A DNA stretch of 61,328 nucleotides from a virus (Duplodnaviria; Heunggongvirae; Uroviricota; Caudoviricetes), in the IMG/VR virus record IMGVR_UViG_3300042894_001948. One strand, 5' to 3'. Both the position numbers and the translations under genes were made by a program. This document shows positions 33,359-48,538 of the stretch, in pieces (position 1 is the first letter of the stretch; every line of letters begins with the position of its first letter). The notes beneath the pieces are model-generated. The model did no database searches. It was not told where the DNA came from and was given only the letters and a program-made list of their open reading frames with translations.

Positions 33359-34156
33359 TTAGTACCTATCACCAATTTTTAAAATTGTAGGTTTATCTAA
33401 TGAATAAAATATTTTAGTTAGTTCAGCAATTGAACTACTGTTGAACTTATTTTCATCAAGTCTTATTAGAGAATATTTATTTTCAATACACCATTCCTCT
33501 AATAACTTATCCTTTAACTGCTTACGAGCAAGTTGGCCATGCACTTCTTTAAAATGCCATATGCCGTCATATTCAAAACATATCTTTAATTTTTTAGAAA
33601 ATAAATCACGTACAATTGTTTCTCCATTATGTTTTAAGCCGCCGCCAAATGTCCATTCATCTTCTGGATGAGTGTTTATAAAATGATCTCTTATTAAGAC
33701 TTCATTTTTTGATGTAAATCGTTTTGATTGCGACATTACTTTTTTAGCGTATTCAGAATTTTGCCATAATGCTTTTGATCGTTCTGAGGCTTGTTTTCTT
33801 GCTTCGGAAGAATGTTTAGGTTGCACAAACCCATTGTTAATTCTTGCTTTATTATTTAAACTTGTTATGCAGGATTTACTACAACCTTTCTTATATGTAT
33901 TAGACACTAATTTTTCATAAGTAAATGTGTTACCACACTGTTTACATGTATCAGTAATTACATGCCGAGGGGTTTTTATTTTTTGAAGATATGATTCATC
34001 ATTATATCTTCCATGATTACCAGATGGATATTTTTGTTTTTGTTCAGGTGTTCCGTGCGCACGTTCAAAATGTGTATGAATTCCGTAAATAGAAAATTCT
34101 TTTTTACAAATAATACAGGCGCAGATTGGTTTGGTATAAATAATGTTGCTGGACAT
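33359..34156 (-). mobile_element. Putative homing endonuclease, Zn-finger plus PD-(D/E)XK (Vsr/DUF559-like)
   Basis: CIICKK, CKQC, CSKSC; ICFEYDGIWHF; leader motif copy B upstream. Confidence 0.7.
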
Positions 34157-41422: not shown

Positions 41423-41432
41423 GAAAATAAAA

Positions 41433-41549
41433 ATAGGTTTCCTACAGCAACAATTTAATATCTCAGTGTGTCGCAGGTTCGATTCCTGCATGTTACTTGT
41501 AACATTAGCTCAGTTGGTAGAGTAATTGATCAAAATTGTGAAACCTGTT
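41433..41549 (+). ncRNA. Y-like RNA 1, permuted tRNA mimic
   Basis: ataggtttc/gaaacctgt stem, TACAGCAAC, T arm gcagg-ttcgatt-cctgc, looped acceptor atgttac/gtaacat, D arm gctc-agttggta-gagt. Confidence 0.8.
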
Positions 41550-41579
41550 AAAACTCCTTAAAAAAATTAAAAAAAAGTG

Positions 41580-41608
41580 TTGACAAGCAGTTAGTTACGT
41601 AGTACAAT
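41580..41608 (+). promoter_or_regulatory. sigma70 promoter driving the RNA array
   Basis: TTGACA-17 nt-TACAAT. Confidence 0.75.
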
Positions 41609-41613
41609 AGTTT

Positions 41614-41670
41614 TAGAATGTTAACAGCAACTTAAAATCATTTTTGAATATGACTAAAATACATTCTGTT
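41614..41670 (+). ncRNA. Y-like RNA 2 (small)
   Basis: agaatgt/acattct stem, TAACAGCAAC. Confidence 0.7.
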
Positions 41671-41681
41671 AAATAGTTTTT

Positions 41682-41760
41682 TAGGTTTCCTACAGCAGTA
41701 CTTTGCAGAAGTGCGGAAAAGATGTTCCGTACATATTTGTAACACTATGTGGAACCTGTT
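41682..41760 (+). ncRNA. Y-like RNA 3
   Basis: aggtttcc/ggaacct stem, TACAGCAGT, inner gtgcggaa/ttccgtac hairpin. Confidence 0.7.
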
Positions 41761-41770
41761 AAAAAGTTTA

Positions 41771-42007
41771 TTAAAAAGAACCCAACTACTGAAAAAACTT
41801 TTGCGAAAGCAGGCACAACGTGTTCTCCGGAAGGGGCACAGTGGGTAGTTATAGACTGCGAGTTGTAATGAGTGAGAGTTTCAGGCAATTACAGTGCTTT
41901 GATTCTAGTTACTATGGTAGTCATGTTGGCGGAACTAGTAAAGGGCGTCTGTAAAACGTTGACCGCATCAGCTCGATGAAACCAAAACTTTACGGGGTTC
42001 TTTTTAA
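41771..42007 (+). ncRNA. About 235-nt multi-stem RNA (Y-like RNA 4, divergent motif)
   Basis: 13-bp closing stem ttaaaaagaaccc/gggttctttttaa; GNRA hairpin; Tyr-like anticodon arm at 41945-41959. Confidence 0.6.
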
Positions 42008-42014
42008 TAAGTTT

Positions 42015-42142
42015 TAGAATGTTAACCGCATCATAATTTAATGGAAACTGGTGTCCTTAGGACGTGTAGGTGCAAGTCCTACAATGCAATATTGCATTTG
42101 GCGAAAGAGTAGACGCACTGGTAAATAAAATGCATTCTGATA
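42015..42142 (+). ncRNA. Y-like RNA 5, permuted tRNA-Leu mimic
   Basis: agaatgt/gcattct stem, TAACCGCATC, variable arm gtcc-ttag-gac, T arm gtagg-tgcaagt-cctac, looped acceptor aatgca/tgcatt, D arm gcg-aaagagtaga-cgc. Confidence 0.8.
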
Positions 42143-42151
42143 AACAAGTTT

Positions 42152-42214
42152 TAGGATAGTAACAGCAACAATTTACATCGGACTCTTAATCTGGCAAGTA
42201 AATTCTATCCTGTT
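42152..42214 (+). ncRNA. Y-like RNA 6 with Lys(CUU) anticodon loop
   Basis: aggatag/ctatcct stem, TAACAGCAAC, cgga-CTCTTAA-tctg. Confidence 0.75.
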
Positions 42215-42219
42215 AATTT

Positions 42220-42307
42220 TAGAATAGTAACAGCAAATTATTTAATGGTTCGATTCCATTATTGCTATCTTAGCGATAATGCTCAATGGTGAGCAAGCTA
42301 TTCTGTT
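42220..42307 (+). ncRNA. Y-like RNA 7, minimal permuted tRNA mimic
   Basis: agaatag/ctattct stem, TAACAGCAAA, T arm aatgg-ttcgatt-ccatt, acceptor attgcta/tagcgat, D arm tgctc-aatggt-gagca. Confidence 0.8.
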
Positions 42308-44955: not shown

Positions 44956-45007
44956 CACAACACATTACTAAATTTAACCCAACATAGTACGCGAATACTA
45001 TAGTTTT

Positions 45008-45059
45008 TGAATGCTAACAGCAATTATTACTTTCAATGGTGAATTTAATGCATTCAGTT
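45008..45059 (+). ncRNA. Y-like RNA 8 with Glu(UUC)-like loop
   Basis: tgaatgc/gcattca stem, TAACAGCAAT, atta-CTTTCAA-tggt. Confidence 0.7.
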
Positions 45060-45082
45060 ATATTATTTGCATACAACAGTTT

Positions 45083-45139
45083 TGGATGCTAACTGCAACT
45101 TTAAACTTTCTTTTTATGAAACTTAAAATGCATCCAGTT
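45083..45139 (+). ncRNA. Y-like RNA 9 with Lys(UUU)-like loop
   Basis: tggatgc/gcatcca stem, TAACTGCAAC, tttc-TTTTTAT-gaaa. Confidence 0.7.
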
Positions 45140-46534: not shown

Positions 46535-46635
46535 TGGTATAGATACTGCAACACAACTTTGGCTGGTCTGTGGTTTCACAGACAATCCTAGGACTCTTTA
46601 CCTAGTATAAAAAAAGTAAGAACTACTATACCGTT
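46535..46635 (+). ncRNA. Y-like RNA 10
   Basis: ggtatag/ctatacc stem, TACTGCAAC; hairpins gtctgtg/cacagac and ctagg/cctag. Confidence 0.7.
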
Positions 46636-46640
46636 AAAAA

Positions 46641-46784
46641 TAGGATAGGTTCAGCAAACAGAATTTGCTAGTTTAATAACTAGCTTTCTGATTAGCGTGT
46701 ACAGTGACCAGTCATTGTGCAAGCATCAGTCGAGGGGCAATGCTCGACTGTAAAATAAACAACTAAACGCCCAAACTATCCTGC
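46641..46784 (+). ncRNA. Y-like RNA 11
   Basis: aggatag/ctatcct stem, TTCAGCAAAC; three inner hairpins. Confidence 0.65.
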
Positions 46785-46816
46785 ATTCTTCCACTAACAA
46801 CTTATAGAGGTATATT

Positions 46817-46993
46817 ATGTCTAATGAAGACGACGATGTATTTTTTACACTTGAACCAGATACACTTGCAGAAATTTTTGCAACTACTCATCATAAATTA
46901 GTAGATGGAGAGATTACACTTAATGAAGCCAATCGCATAGGAAGTAACATGCCAGAAGGTTGGGAATTTGAGTTTGAAGACGAAGAAGAATAA
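46817..46993 (+). CDS. 58-aa acidic hypothetical (not in ORF track)
   Basis: GAGG SD; MSNEDDDVFF... Confidence 0.5.
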   Translation: MSNEDDDVFFTLEPDTLAEIFATTHHKLVDGEITLNEANRIGSNMPEGWEFEFEDEEE

Positions 46994-47031
46994 ACCGCTT
47001 AACACGCGGTTTTTTATTCTCTAAAAAATAG

Positions 47032-47122
47032 TTGACAAACAATTTTAATAGTGTATAATACACAGCATAAACAATAAGTTTATTAACAGCACATAATTTA
47101 ATATAAACTGAGGAGAACACAC
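47032..47122 (+). promoter_or_regulatory. Promoter plus Y-motif stem abutting the SD of the DUF2828 gene
   Basis: TTGACA/TATAAT; agtttat-TAACAGCAC...ataaact-g-AGGAG. Confidence 0.7.
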
Positions 47123-48538
47123 ATGAGTACATTTATCGAAGCAATTGCAAATCAAGAAGATCGTACTACTAACGGTATGAAAGCACGTAAATCAACTTCA
47201 TCTGCTGTAGTTGATTTGTTTTTTAAAATTGGCGCGTCACGTGGCAAAAACATCACACCTGAATTCGTTGCTGCTTATGTAGAAGATAAAGATCTTGCAT
47301 TACGTATTGCAGCTTGGGTACGCGATGTACGTGGTGGTGCAGGCGAACGCCAGTTGTTTAGAGATATTTTATTACATCTCGAAAACTCCGATCCAGATGC
47401 TGCTAAGAAACTTGCAGCTAAAGTTCCTGAACTTGGACGCTACGATGACTTACTTGTGTTCAAAACACAAAACTTAAAGGACTATGCATTTGCGTTAATT
47501 AAAGATGCATTAGAAGCGCAAAATGGACTTGCTGCTAAATGGATTCCACGTAAAGGAGATACTGCGGTACAGTTACGCAATTACTTAGGGTGGTCTCCTA
47601 AACGTTATCGCAAAACACTTGTTTCACTTACTAAAGTAGTTGAAACACAAATGTGTGCTAACCAATGGGACACTATTAACTTTAGTCATGTTCCATCTGT
47701 AGCATCTTCACGCTACAAAAAAGCATTTGCTCGTCACACTGACAAGTATGCTGAATACATTGCTAAATTAGTTAAAGGTGATGATCCAACTGTTAAAGTT
47801 AACGCAGGTGCGATCTATCCATATGAAATCGTTAAGGGTTTAAGTGGTTGGTGGTCTCAACCATCACTACTTGAAAAACAACACATTATTGCACAATGGG
47901 ACGCGTTACCTAACTATGTTGGTGATGCAAGCATTTTACCATTAGTTGATGTATCAGGTTCTATGGGCTGTCCTGCAGGTAAAAGCAAAACTGTTACATG
48001 TATGGATGTTTCATTATCTTTAGGAATATACTTAGCAGATAAAAATGCTGGTAAGTTTAAAGATACATTCTTAACATTTAGCTCTAAACCAGAGTTAGTT
48101 ACACTAAAAGGTAATGTAGTTGAGAAGTATGCGCAGATGTCAAAAAGTGATTGGCAAATGGGCACTAACTTACATGCAGCTTTTTCTAAGATTTTAGAAG
48201 TTGCAGTTAATGGTAATGTACCTGTTGAAGAAATGCCACAGATACTTTTAATATTATCTGATATGCAATTTGATGCTTGTGTAACACATGATGATTCTGC
48301 AATAAAAATGATTCGTCGTAAGTATGAAGATGCAGGATATACAGTACCACAAGTTGTATTTTGGAACTTAAACTCACATGACAATGTGCCAGTTAAGTAC
48401 AATGCAAAAGGTGCAGCATTAGTAAGTGGATTTAGTCCAAGTATTATGACAAGTGTACTTGCAGCTGATATGGATGACTTTACTCCACAAGCAATTATGT
48501 TACAAACAATTATGAATCCTAGATATGATATAGGATAA
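47123..48538 (+). CDS. DUF2828-family protein with C-terminal vWA domain (TROVE/Ro60-like)
   Basis: RTTNGM, RDVRGGAGER, GRYDDLL, AAKWIPR, MIDAS-like LVDVSGSMG, ILSDMQFD, VFWNL, LVSGFS. Confidence 0.8.
   Translation: MSTFIEAIANQEDRTTNGMKARKSTSSAVVDLFFKIGASRGKNITPEFVAAYVEDKDLALRIAAWVRDVRGGAGERQLFRDILLHLENSDPDAAKKLAAKVPELGRYDDLLVFKTQNLKDYAFALIKDALEAQNGLAAKWIPRKGDTAVQLRNYLGWSPKRYRKTLVSLTKVVETQMCANQWDTINFSHVPSVASSRYKKAFARHTDKYAEYIAKLVKGDDPTVKVNAGAIYPYEIVKGLSGWWSQPSLLEKQHIIAQWDALPNYVGDASILPLVDVSGSMGCPAGKSKTVTCMDVSLSLGIYLADKNAGKFKDTFLTFSSKPELVTLKGNVVEKYAQMSKSDWQMGTNLHAAFSKILEVAVNGNVPVEEMPQILLILSDMQFDACVTHDDSAIKMIRRKYEDAGYTVPQVVFWNLNSHDNVPVKYNAKGAALVSGFSPSIMTSVLAADMDDFTPQAIMLQTIMNPRYDIG

What the first reader, a model, noticed from the sequence alone, without database searches (positions are those of the whole stretch)
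47032..47122. The DUF2828 gene's own leader carries a twelfth copy of the Y motif next to its SD (autoregulation)
agtttat (47077-47083) is followed by TAACAGCAC and closes with ataaact (47103-47109); AGGAG begins at 47111. This is the same stem-plus-motif architecture as the array. It is the best sequence-only link between the protein and the RNAs, and suggests translational feedback titrated by free Y-like RNAs.
Basis: partly seen in the sequence, partly recalled or inferred. Interest (0 to 1): 0.8.

Follow-up and report, generated by a model that had tools for sequence, protein, structure and literature searches.

The report
RNA handle copy in Ro-like gene's leader
A lake-water phage's gene for a Ro60-shaped RNA-binding protein carries, between its promoter and its ribosome-binding site, a stripped-down copy of the "handle" shared by the phage's small Y-like RNAs. 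The same arrangement recurs in dozens of related and several unrelated phages, so the protein probably throttles its own translation, though this has not been tested.

Summary

**What is there:**
- A perfect sigma-70-type promoter (47032-47059) drives a 57-nt leader.
- The leader is essentially one stem-loop: AGTTTAT / TAACAGCACA / 9 variable nt / ATAAACT, then G and the Shine-Dalgarno (SD) sequence AGGAG.

**Evidence that it is real:**
- The stem is weak on its own (-2.8 kcal/mol, no better than shuffles).
- A covariance model was built only from the leaders of 54 distant homologues. In the whole window it finds the array RNAs and this leader (25.4 bits, E about 0.008) and nothing else convincing.
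- In four haplotypes of the window's own lineage, stem, motif and SD never vary, while 7 of 9 remaining loop positions do.
- About 62 of 67 distinct homologous leaders carry such a unit.
- In 56 of 62 measured, the SD starts 0-4 nt after the stem.
- Eleven have their own promoter directly in front of the unit.
- The layout recurs in cultured phages phiM12, XaC1 and APT65.

**The protein:** its predicted fold matches Ro60.

**Reading:** the element is a genuine handle copy. Its most likely role, about 45%, is as an operator for translational self-repression, relieved by free handle RNAs. Binding and repression are inferred, not shown.

**Prior notes:** this scan has already noted the protein/ACAGCAA-handle pairing in 20 or more other genomes, and a leader copy twice.

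The parts
46992..47012 (+). Intrinsic terminator ending the upstream transcription unit (small ORF 46817-46993)
   Evidence: Terminator scan. It is conserved in near relatives.
47032..47059 (+). Sigma-70-type promoter: TTGACA 47032-47037, 16-nt spacer, TATAAT 47054-47059. The transcription start is inferred at about 47066.
   Evidence: 12/12 match. It belongs to a promoter repeat family in the window. Both hexamers are invariant and the spacer varies across four haplotypes. The transcription start is inferred, not mapped.
47077..47083 (+). 5' strand of the closing stem (AGUUUAU), beginning with the family's AG
   Evidence: 0 of 7 positions vary. Homologous leaders covary at this stem.
47084..47093 (+). 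Handle motif UAACAGCACA (core ACAGCAC 47086-47092; family consensus ACAGCAA)
   Evidence: 0 of 10 positions vary in the lineage.
47094..47102 (+). Unconstrained remainder of the loop (spacer); no inner hairpin or tRNA-like cargo
   Evidence: 7 of 9 positions vary among four haplotypes.
47103..47109 (+). 3' strand of the closing stem (AUAAACU), ending with the family's CU
   Evidence: 0 of 7 vary.
47110..47115 (+). Conserved G that follows every unit, fused to the Shine-Dalgarno sequence (GAGGAG). It replaces the GUU(A/U) tail of free units.
   Evidence: The SD starts 0-4 nt after the stem in 56 of 62 homologous leaders.
47123..48538 (+). Gene for the Ro60-like protein (Pfam DUF2828 + DUF7788, PHROG 850 'RNA-binding protein'), 471 aa
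   Evidence: The predicted fold's 13 best PDB matches are all Ro60 proteins.
41431..42305 (+). First block of handle-bearing Y-like RNAs: units at 41431-41547, 41611-41668, 41679-41758, 42012-42139, 42149-42212 and 42217-42305. These are the presumed competitors for the protein.
   Evidence: R1 hits of 18-53 bits. Sub-threshold Rfam YrlA match at 41450-41542.
45004..45137 (+). Two further small handle RNAs (45004-45057, 45079-45137) between tRNA-Pro and tRNA-Gly
   Evidence: R1 scores 40.9 and 41.4 bits.
46536..46783 (+). Two larger handle units: 46536-46633 (GGTATAG...CTATACC-GTTAAAA) and 46642-46783 (AGGATAG-GTTCAGCAAA...CTATCCT-G)
   Evidence: Sequence read. Descriptor hit. R1 is only weak here (15.4 bits).

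Best explanation
The 5' untranslated leader of the Ro60-like (DUF2828/DUF7788) gene is a minimal, cargo-less copy of the 'handle' that closes every Y-like RNA of this phage.

The handle consists of:
- a short AG...CU stem;
- the single-stranded motif (U)AACAGCA(A/C) directly after the 5' strand;
- a G after the 3' strand.

Proposed mechanism:
- The Ro-like protein recognises this handle on the free RNAs.
- Once the protein exceeds the free handle RNAs, it also binds the copy on its own mRNA.
- The Shine-Dalgarno sequence begins 1 nt after the stem and the start codon 13 nt after it. The bound 53-kDa ring, and the weak hairpin it stabilises, would therefore keep the 30S subunit off.
- Free handle RNAs compete and relieve the block.

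This would be autogenous translational repression by ligand mimicry, matching protein output to the pool of partner RNAs.

Shown: family membership, conservation, covariation, position next to the SD, recurrence behind independent promoters, and the Ro60-like predicted fold.

Inferred: that the protein binds the handle, that binding blocks initiation, and the direction of the effect.
For: 1. Membership. Model R1, built from 54 leaders of 66-71%-identical homologues with the window's lineage excluded, finds only array units and this leader in the window. The leader scores 25.4 bits, E 0.0077.

2. The stem is real. 98.6% of cells pair. Four of 8 pairs change on both sides (72 cells, against 24 in shuffles). 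Slid controls give about zero. At least 13 different stem sequences keep pairing across lineages.

3. Footprint in the window's own lineage (proteins 97, 88 and 79% identical). 0 of 24 stem and motif positions vary, against 13 of 25 in the promoter spacer and the rest of the loop (Fisher p = 3e-5).

4. The element follows the gene. About 62 of 67 distinct upstream contexts have a unit. In 56 of 62 the SD starts 0-4 nt after the stem and the stem ends 11-17 nt before the ATG.

5. Eleven contexts have an 11-12/12 promoter ending 6-17 nt before the unit. The promoter sits upstream of the unit, not between unit and gene, and these units have shorter loops (median 27 nt against 40). The same terminator/promoter, minimal handle, SD layout appears in Xanthomonas phage XaC1 (37% identity) and Sinorhizobium phage phiM12 (40%). 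A unit also abuts the SD in Aeromonas APT65, Synechococcus BUCT-ZZ01 and Campylobacter F374.

6. Leader units differ from free units exactly at the tail. GUU follows 93 of about 120 array units but 5 of 56 leader units, where purine-rich SD letters take its place.

7. All these stems are thermodynamically marginal (z about 0), as expected for a hairpin that needs a protein to matter.

8. Link between protein and handle. Handle units accompany this gene family on the same strand in phages of Listeria, Staphylococcus, Enterococcus, Bacillus, Mycobacterium, Campylobacter, Aeromonas, Salmonella/E. coli and Synechococcus. The predicted fold matches Ro60. Ro60 binds the 5' strand of the Y RNA stem (PMC4201824).
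Against: - No binding or expression data exist.
- In most loci the leader unit is simply the last unit of a co-transcribed array. It has an inner hairpin like free units, so it could be cut off as an ordinary partner RNA.
- Canonical Ro60 genes also have Y RNAs just upstream on the same transcript (M. smegmatis, phage phiLo) with no reported autoregulation (PMC4201824, PMC12135203).
- The leader copy is absent in the sampled Gram-positive phages and the mycobacteriophage (units elsewhere; a terminator and promoter intervene in EfV12). It is also absent from Felix O1-type leaders, so it is not a universal feature of the protein family.
- Units in arrays are spaced only about 8-12 nt apart, so closeness to an SD is partly what compaction would give. 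Another gene (46817) also has a unit 34 nt before its ATG.
- Independent stem haplotypes are few (roughly a dozen), and many alignment rows are close relatives.
Confidence: 0.45

Rival explanations
1. The leader unit is just one more partner (Y-like) RNA. It is transcribed together with the protein's mRNA to secure co-expression and is cut off the 5' end by host RNases. It has no feedback role.
For: - It belongs to the same family as the array units.
- In most homologous loci it is the last member of an array with no promoter in between.
- The AGAATGT/ACATTCT leader unit of other lineages exists in this window as a free unit at 41611-41668.
- There is precedent: M. smegmatis YrlA and YrlB lie upstream of rsr and are processed from one precursor, and phiLo Yrl1/Yrl2 lie upstream of its Ro60 gene (PMC4201824, PMC12135203).
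Against: - In the window and ten other promoter-bearing contexts, and in XaC1 and phiM12, the unit is reduced to stem plus motif with no cargo (19-29-nt loops in most; 38 and 45 nt in L061 and L076), yet stem and motif are strictly conserved.
- The GUU tail, which could serve as the inter-unit cleavage site, is replaced by the SD. Cutting the unit off would leave an mRNA that starts at its SD.
Confidence: 0.27
2. The element is bound by the protein or by another factor, but for a different purpose. Possibilities: a 5'-terminal hairpin that protects the mRNA from decay, a tether that loads nascent protein onto RNA in cis, or an activator of translation.
For: - The unit starts 0-11 nt from the predicted transcription start in promoter-bearing loci, the position of known 5' stabiliser hairpins.
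- The SD is not sequestered in any predicted fold, so nothing needs to be relieved.
Against: - The stems are too weak (-2 to -9 kcal/mol, z about 0) to act as stand-alone stabilisers.
- A plain stabiliser would not need the invariant ACAGCA motif.
- Activation by a protein sitting 1 nt from the SD has few precedents.
Confidence: 0.2
3. It is a chance resemblance: an A/T-rich inverted repeat plus a 9-mer that happens to look like the array motif.
For: - Folding energy is no better than that of shuffled sequence.
- The exact 9-mer TAACAGCAC also occurs at four unrelated places in the window.
Against: - CM E-value of 0.008 for the whole window.
- Invariant stem and motif beside a variable loop.
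- The same element at the same place in about 62 of 67 homologous leaders, with covarying stems.
- Descriptor hits of 204 against 17 by strand.
Confidence: 0.02

Closest known systems
Autogenous translational repression by ligand mimicry: E. coli thrS operator (a tRNA-Thr anticodon-arm mimic next to the SD), ribosomal-protein leaders that mimic rRNA sites, and the phage MS2 coat protein/replicase operator hairpin. These examples are cited from established knowledge, not retrieved here.
   Same: A copy of the protein's primary RNA ligand sits at the ribosome-binding site of the protein's own mRNA. The hairpin is weak and would depend on the protein. Free ligand RNA would compete and derepress.
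   Different: The protein is a Ro60-like ring with no known regulatory role. The ligand is a family of about ten different small RNAs sharing only a handle. Neither binding nor repression has been shown.
Ro60 (Rsr)/Y RNA particles, including bacterial and phage YrlA (Rfam RF02553) and Thermus phage phiLo Ro60 with Yrl1/Yrl2 (PMC4201824, PMC12135203)
   Same: - The predicted fold is a ring-shaped HEAT-repeat plus vWA protein.
- Partner RNAs are closed by a 5'/3' stem with a conserved motif on the 5' side.
- Some partner RNAs carry tRNA-like T and D arms (YrlA sub-threshold hit).
- The RNAs are encoded beside the gene, on the same strand and often upstream.
   Different: - Pfam assigns the protein to DUF2828/DUF7788, and no TROVE match was reported. 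A PDB sequence profile search finds no Ro60.
- The motif is ACAGCAA rather than GNCGAA/GGUCCGA.
- No Rfam family reaches its gathering threshold on these units.
- I found no report of a handle copy fused to the SD of a canonical Ro60 gene.
Class I RNAs of dictyostelid social amoebae (PMC7919456)
   Same: - They are 42-65 nt long, with a short covarying stem joining the 5' and 3' ends.
- A conserved motif of about 11 nt lies directly after the 5' strand, and the rest is variable.
- The conserved ends are AAG... and ...CUGU. The leader reads aAG...CUG, and free units read AG...CUGU.
   Different: - They are eukaryotic, stand-alone genes with their own promoter element.
- Their known binder is an RRM protein.
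- The letters of the 11-nt motif are not given in the text I could read, so its identity with ACAGCAA rests on my memory only.

Membership tests
ACAGCAA-handle RNAs that accompany DUF2828 Ro-like genes (not in Rfam) | Closing stem of 6-9 bp that starts AG and ends CU, with structure but not sequence conserved | tested here: met
   AGUUUAU/AUAAACU, 7 bp. Aligned as the stem by R1. The stem covaries in homologous leaders.
ACAGCAA-handle RNAs that accompany DUF2828 Ro-like genes (not in Rfam) | Single-stranded motif (U/A)(A/U)CAGCAA starting 0-2 nt after the 5' strand | tested here: met
   UAACAGCAC at 47084-47092, with one departure (last A to C). L033 shares this departure, and it was not seen among the commonest array motifs.
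ACAGCAA-handle RNAs that accompany DUF2828 Ro-like genes (not in Rfam) | G directly after the 3' strand, usually continued as GUU(A/U) | tested here: inconclusive
   The G at 47110 is present. The UU is replaced by AGGAG, as in 51 of 56 leader units but few array units.
ACAGCAA-handle RNAs that accompany DUF2828 Ro-like genes (not in Rfam) | Same strand as, and close to, a DUF2828/DUF7788 gene | tested here: met
   The unit ends 13 nt before the gene's ATG. 135 of 136 and 19 of 19 R1 hits in related loci lie on the gene's strand.
Y RNA / YrlA (Rfam RF02553) | GNCGAA(N0-1)G or GGUCCGA Ro-binding motif near the 5' end | tested here: not met
   No such motif in 47066-47122. The motif is defined in PMC4201824.
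Y RNA / YrlA (Rfam RF02553) | tRNA-like T and D arms; score at or above the Rfam gathering threshold | tested here: not met
   No Rfam hit on the leader even at E <= 1. Only array unit 41450-41542 scores, at 38.9 bits against a threshold of 69.
Ro60/TROVE proteins (for the gene product) | HEAT-repeat ring plus vWA/MIDAS domain fold | tested here: met
   The 13 best Foldseek PDB hits are all Ro60 proteins over about 500 columns (E 3e-8 to 2e-4, TM 0.37-0.53). The model has pLDDT 72. A DVSGSM MIDAS motif is present.
Ro60/TROVE proteins (for the gene product) | Sequence match to the TROVE family | tested here: not met
   Pfam gives DUF7788 and DUF2828 only. A profile search of PDB sequences finds no Ro60.
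Autogenous translational operators (thrS-type or r-protein-type mimicry) | The operator resembles the protein's primary RNA ligand and overlaps or abuts the ribosome-binding site | tested here: met
   R1 hit. The SD begins 1 nt after the stem. The same holds in 56 of 62 homologous leaders. That the handle is the protein's ligand is itself inferred from co-occurrence.
Autogenous translational operators (thrS-type or r-protein-type mimicry) | The protein binds the operator and represses its own translation, and free ligand relieves the repression | not testable with these tools
   This needs EMSA, toeprinting and reporter assays. RNA read mapping was unavailable.

The most novel reading that the evidence does not exclude
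Phage Ro60-like proteins run a titration circuit. The mRNA's own 5' end is a low-affinity decoy handle (ACAGCAC rather than ACAGCAA), so each protein molecule is made only while unoccupied partner RNAs remain. This would be the first regulatory RNA operator known for any Ro60-type protein. It would also be a natural 33-nt minimal binding site defining how this undescribed Ro/Y-like particle recognises its RNAs. The same handle grammar may reach as far as the Class I RNAs of social amoebae.
Probability: 0.3. Interest if true: 0.8.

Novelty: new variant of a known kind. Interest (0 to 1): 0.62.

Why it matters
The protein family is very common in phages: more than 700 sequenced phage genomes and about 8,000 proteins in the first search. 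One member, Bas63 gp130, is reported to counter the Ppl defence system (PMC11482910). Yet I found no description of its RNA partners or their recognition signal in Rfam or in the papers searched.

What the leader copy offers:
- It is the smallest natural version of the handle: 33 nt, with no cargo domain.
- It is physically tied to the gene, which makes it the cleanest substrate for binding, structural and mutational work.
- It turns the question 'does this protein bind these RNAs?' into a simple reporter experiment.
- If the feedback is real, it explains how a phage balances one protein against ten or more different partner RNAs, and it adds a Ro-type protein to the short list of RNA-binding proteins that regulate themselves by ligand mimicry.

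Tractable systems with the same layout exist: Sinorhizobium phage phiM12, Xanthomonas phage XaC1 and Aeromonas phage APT65.

Tried and rejected
- **Folding energy as evidence:** rejected. The leader and ten homologous leaders fold no better than shuffles.
- **First loose descriptor** (any 6-bp stem plus C[ACT]GCA): too permissive. It gave 21 hits on the plus strand and 16 on the minus strand, and missed true units. I replaced it with a stricter one.
- **First MAFFT alignment running up to the ATG:** it misaligned the short-loop leaders. I re-aligned after trimming at the stem end.
- **Rfam at gathering and at E-value thresholds:** nothing on the leader or on units in other phages, apart from tRNA hits and one sub-threshold YrlA hit.
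- **NCBIfam:** no family.
- **Profile search of PDB sequences:** no Ro60. Only the fold search shows the relation.
- **Searching the window's own assembly:** not held.
- **Transcription attenuator or terminator reading:** rejected, because no U tract follows the stem.
- **SD sequestration or a riboswitch-like alternative fold:** rejected, because no predicted structure pairs the SD.
- **Felix O1-type, phiAS5, Staphylococcus 6ec, Breezona and EfV12 leaders:** no leader copy found, although 6ec, Breezona, EfV12 and the Felix O1-type phages carry units elsewhere. I therefore do not claim the leader copy is universal.
- **phi-ST2 leader:** it has ACAGCAA, but its stem has a U-U mismatch. I left it as 'possible'.
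- **Complex prediction:** not used, because it does not take RNA.

Full report
**1. The observation**

- agtttat 47077-47083
- TAACAGCAC 47084-47092
- ataaact 47103-47109
- AGGAG 47111-47115
- ATG 47123

The finding's start, 47032, is the TTGACA of a perfect sigma-70-type promoter (TTGACA, 16 nt, TATAAT 47054-47059). This is one of four 12/12 promoters in 40.9-49.8 kb and part of a promoter repeat family. A terminator lies just upstream at 46992-47012.

The gene therefore has its own transcription unit. Its leader is about 57 nt long (transcription start inferred near 47066) and consists of little more than the stem-loop and the Shine-Dalgarno (SD) sequence.

The gene (47123-48538) matches Pfam DUF7788 (3e-47) and DUF2828 (4e-24), and PHROG 850 'RNA-binding protein'.

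**2. Is it more than chance?**

Not by thermodynamics. The 7-bp A/U stem with a 19-nt loop gives -2.8 kcal/mol, no better than shuffled sequence.

By comparison, yes.

I fetched relatives of the protein from IMG/VR. I then took the region just before the start codon of 54 homologues that are 66-71% identical, leaving out the window and its near relatives, and aligned it (A4). I tested an 8-bp closing stem on this alignment:
- 98.6% of cells pair.
- Four pairs change on both sides (72 cells, against 24 in shuffles).
- Sliding the partner by one to three columns abolishes the signal.

A covariance model of this alignment (R1) was run with filters off over both strands of the whole window:
- The top nine hits all lie on the plus strand.
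- Eight are array RNAs: 41611 at 53 bits, then 45079, 45004, 42149, 42217, 42012, 41431 and 41679.
- The ninth, at rank 7, is the leader: 47073-47110, 25.4 bits, E 0.0077.
- The next hits have E above 0.4 and are scattered.

A strict descriptor gives 204 hits on the gene's strand and 17 on the other strand in 556 kb of loci. In the window it gives 12 against 1.

The leader is therefore a member of the same family as the array units.

**3. Conservation in the window's own lineage**

Four haplotypes are available: the window, L009, L008 and L019, with proteins 97, 88 and 79% identical.

Invariant in all four:
- the -35 and -10 hexamers
- the 5' strand (7 nt)
- UAACAGCACA (10 nt)
- the 3' strand (7 nt)
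- GAGGAG (6 nt)

Variable:
- 6 of 16 promoter-spacer positions
- 7 of 9 remaining loop positions
- the lengths of the stretches from the transcription start to the stem and from the SD to the ATG

Stem plus motif (0 of 24 variable) against spacer plus rest of the loop (13 of 25) gives Fisher p = 3e-5. This is a footprint of selection on exactly the parts that define the handle.

**4. Homologous leaders**

I printed 130 nt upstream of each start.

Census of 67 distinct upstream contexts:
- About 62 have a clear unit directly before the SD.
- L042, L047 and L086 have imperfect stems.
- L066 keeps only a 5' half.

Position, in the 62 contexts measured:
- In 56, an SD-like tetramer starts 0-4 nt after the stem's terminal CU.
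- In 56, the stem ends 11-17 nt before the ATG.

The stems differ but always pair:
- AGAATGT/ACATTCT
- AGAATGC/GCATTCT
- AGGTTAT/ATAACCT
- AGGTTAA/TTAACCT
- AGATTGA/TCAATCT
- AGGATAC/GTATCCT
- AGTTTAG/CTAAACT
- AGTTTAT/ATAAACT (the window)

In most loci the unit is the last of an array with no promoter in between (for example L012).

However, eleven contexts, the window among them, have an 11-12/12 promoter ending 6-17 nt before the unit. These units have shorter loops (median 27 nt against 40). When the gene gains its own promoter, the promoter lands upstream of a handle that has been pared down to stem plus motif, not between handle and gene.

R1 over 80 sources gives 136 hits at E <= 1, and 135 are on the gene's strand.

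**5. Distant, cultured phages**

tblastn finds the protein in 705 phage records. Several are annotated 'Ro-like RNA binding protein' or 'vWFA protein'. I read the flanks of 14 records.

Minimal handle between a terminator/promoter and the SD:
- Sinorhizobium phiM12: AAAACGA, ca, ACAGCAAC, 11 nt, TCGTTTT, then G and AAAAGGA.
- Xanthomonas XaC1: AGAAGTG, a, ACAGCATC, 11 nt, CATTTCT, then G and AAGGAAA.

Last unit of an array abutting the SD:
- Aeromonas APT65, with the stem AGAATGT/ACATTCT, then GTTAAGGA.
- Synechococcus BUCT-ZZ01.
- Campylobacter F374.

Possible:
- Vibrio phi-ST2 has ACAGCAA, but its stem has a mismatch.

Units present but not in the leader:
- Listeria LMTA-94: three units upstream, then a hairpin.
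- Bacillus FADO.
- Enterococcus EfV12: a terminator and promoter intervene.
- Staphylococcus 6ec and Mycobacterium phage Breezona: three units downstream of the gene.
- Felix O1-type phages: R1 hits between the downstream tRNA genes.

None seen in the flanks read:
- Aeromonas phiAS5.

The protein-handle pairing is thus very broad. The leader placement is frequent among phages of Gram-negative hosts and cyanobacteria but is not universal.

**6. How leader units differ from free units**

After the 3' strand, array units read GUU(A/U/G) in 93 of about 120 distinct cases. Leader units do so in 5 of 56. Instead they read GUAAAGG, GAAAGGA, GUGAGG or GAGGAG, so the SD occupies the place of the tail.

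The window's motif variant ACAGCAC occurs in 5 of 56 leader units and was not among the commonest array motifs. A weaker-than-consensus site is what one would expect of a feedback operator, but this is speculation.

**7. The protein**

An AlphaFold model from a 23-sequence alignment (pLDDT 72, pTM 0.69) has as its 13 best PDB matches only Ro60 proteins:
- Thermus phage phiLo Ro60
- D. radiodurans Rsr
- Xenopus and human Ro60

These matches span about 500 columns, with E from 3e-8 to 2e-4 and TM from 0.37 to 0.53. vWA domains follow lower in the list.

Sequence profiles do not reach Ro60, and Pfam files the protein under DUF2828/DUF7788. It is therefore Ro60-like in predicted fold but not a TROVE family member by sequence.

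From the literature:
- Ro60 contacts mainly the 5' strand of the Y RNA stem. Bacterial and phage YrlA RNAs carry GNCGAA, not ACAGCAA (PMC4201824).
- phiLo Ro60 binds two upstream Yrl RNAs that carry a CGAA motif (PMC12135203).
- A preprint reports that the Felix O1-type homologue Bas63 gp130 counters the Ppl defence system (PMC11482910).

None of the papers found describes the ACAGCAA handle or a leader copy.

**8. Mechanism**

The best-supported reading is autogenous translational repression by ligand mimicry:
- The protein binds the handle.
- The handle on the mRNA lies within the space a 30S subunit needs: the stem spans -46 to -14 relative to the ATG, and the SD starts 1 nt after it.
- The weak hairpin matters only when held by the protein.
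- Free handle RNAs compete and relieve the block.

Shown: membership, selection, covariation, position, and recurrence behind independent promoters. Inferred: binding, occlusion, and the sign of the effect.

The chief rival is that the unit is simply a co-transcribed partner RNA cut from the 5' end, as in M. smegmatis and phiLo. The cargo-less, strictly conserved minimal units behind their own promoters, and the replacement of the tail by the SD, argue against this rival but do not exclude it. Other roles remain possible: a 5' stabiliser, a cis-loading tether, or an activator. Chance is effectively excluded.

**9. Comparison and novelty**

In how it would work, the element resembles the thrS operator and ribosomal-protein leaders (from general knowledge). 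In composition it belongs to a Ro/Y-RNA-like system whose RNA half is not in Rfam.

Dictyostelid Class I RNAs share the grammar: an AAG start, a CUGU end, a short covarying stem, and a motif after the 5' strand (PMC7919456). I could not verify the motif's letters.

Earlier notes of this scan had already recorded the protein/ACAGCAA-handle pairing in 20 or more other genomes. Twice they recorded a copy in the gene's leader or on its ribosome-binding site. The present report adds a quantitative test for this window and a census of leaders.

I rate the finding a new variant of a known kind.

**10. Limits**
- The window's own assembly is not held.
- Many alignment rows are close relatives, so independent stem haplotypes number roughly a dozen.
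- Promoters and the transcription start are consensus predictions.

Noticed in passing
L094 (Synechococcus phage BUCT-ZZ01) 4075-4200 and 4205-4325: Two tRNA genes downstream of the Ro-like gene each carry the same insert of about 35 nt. It forms a GCATTCT/AGAATG hairpin followed by TTCTGCAAT, which are handle-like letters built into a tRNA body.
   Followed up: no
window 41580-41668: A near-consensus promoter (TTGACA, 17 nt, TACAAT) fires straight into unit 41611-41668. That unit's AGAATGT/ACATTCT stem is the leader unit of most other lineages and of Aeromonas phage APT65. In this lineage the 'usual' leader unit therefore seems to live as a free RNA, while a new minimal copy sits in the leader.
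   Followed up: partly
L087 2880-3003: Partial duplication of the leader's 3' half, the SD and the first codons of the gene. It looks like a recombination scar between two leader variants.
   Followed up: no
L066, 130 nt before the gene start: The only homologue of 67 whose leader keeps just the 5' half of a unit (AGAAT-TACAGCAGG) with no matching 3' strand. This is a decayed leader copy.
   Followed up: partly
L097 3251-3321 and 3417-3476; L106 2451-2522 and 2618-2681 (Felix O1-type phages): Handle units detected by R1 lie between the tRNA genes downstream of the Ro-like gene. This fits a published guess that some 'tRNA genes' of Bas63 are Y RNAs (PMC11482910).
   Followed up: partly
window 41450-41542: Sub-threshold but full-length match to Rfam YrlA (38.9 bits against a threshold of 69, E 5e-6) inside the first array unit. 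It covers the tRNA-like part only, not the handle.
   Followed up: no
window 33416-33519 (+): Descriptor hit with handle grammar (AGTTAG-TTCAGCAAT ... TTAACT-G) about 800 nt upstream of the permuted tmRNA gene. R1 did not report it, so it may be chance.
   Followed up: no
window 46776-46819: Unit 46642-46783 ends 34 nt before the ATG of the small acidic ORF 46817-46993. A handle unit close to a start codon is therefore not unique to the Ro-like gene.
   Followed up: partly
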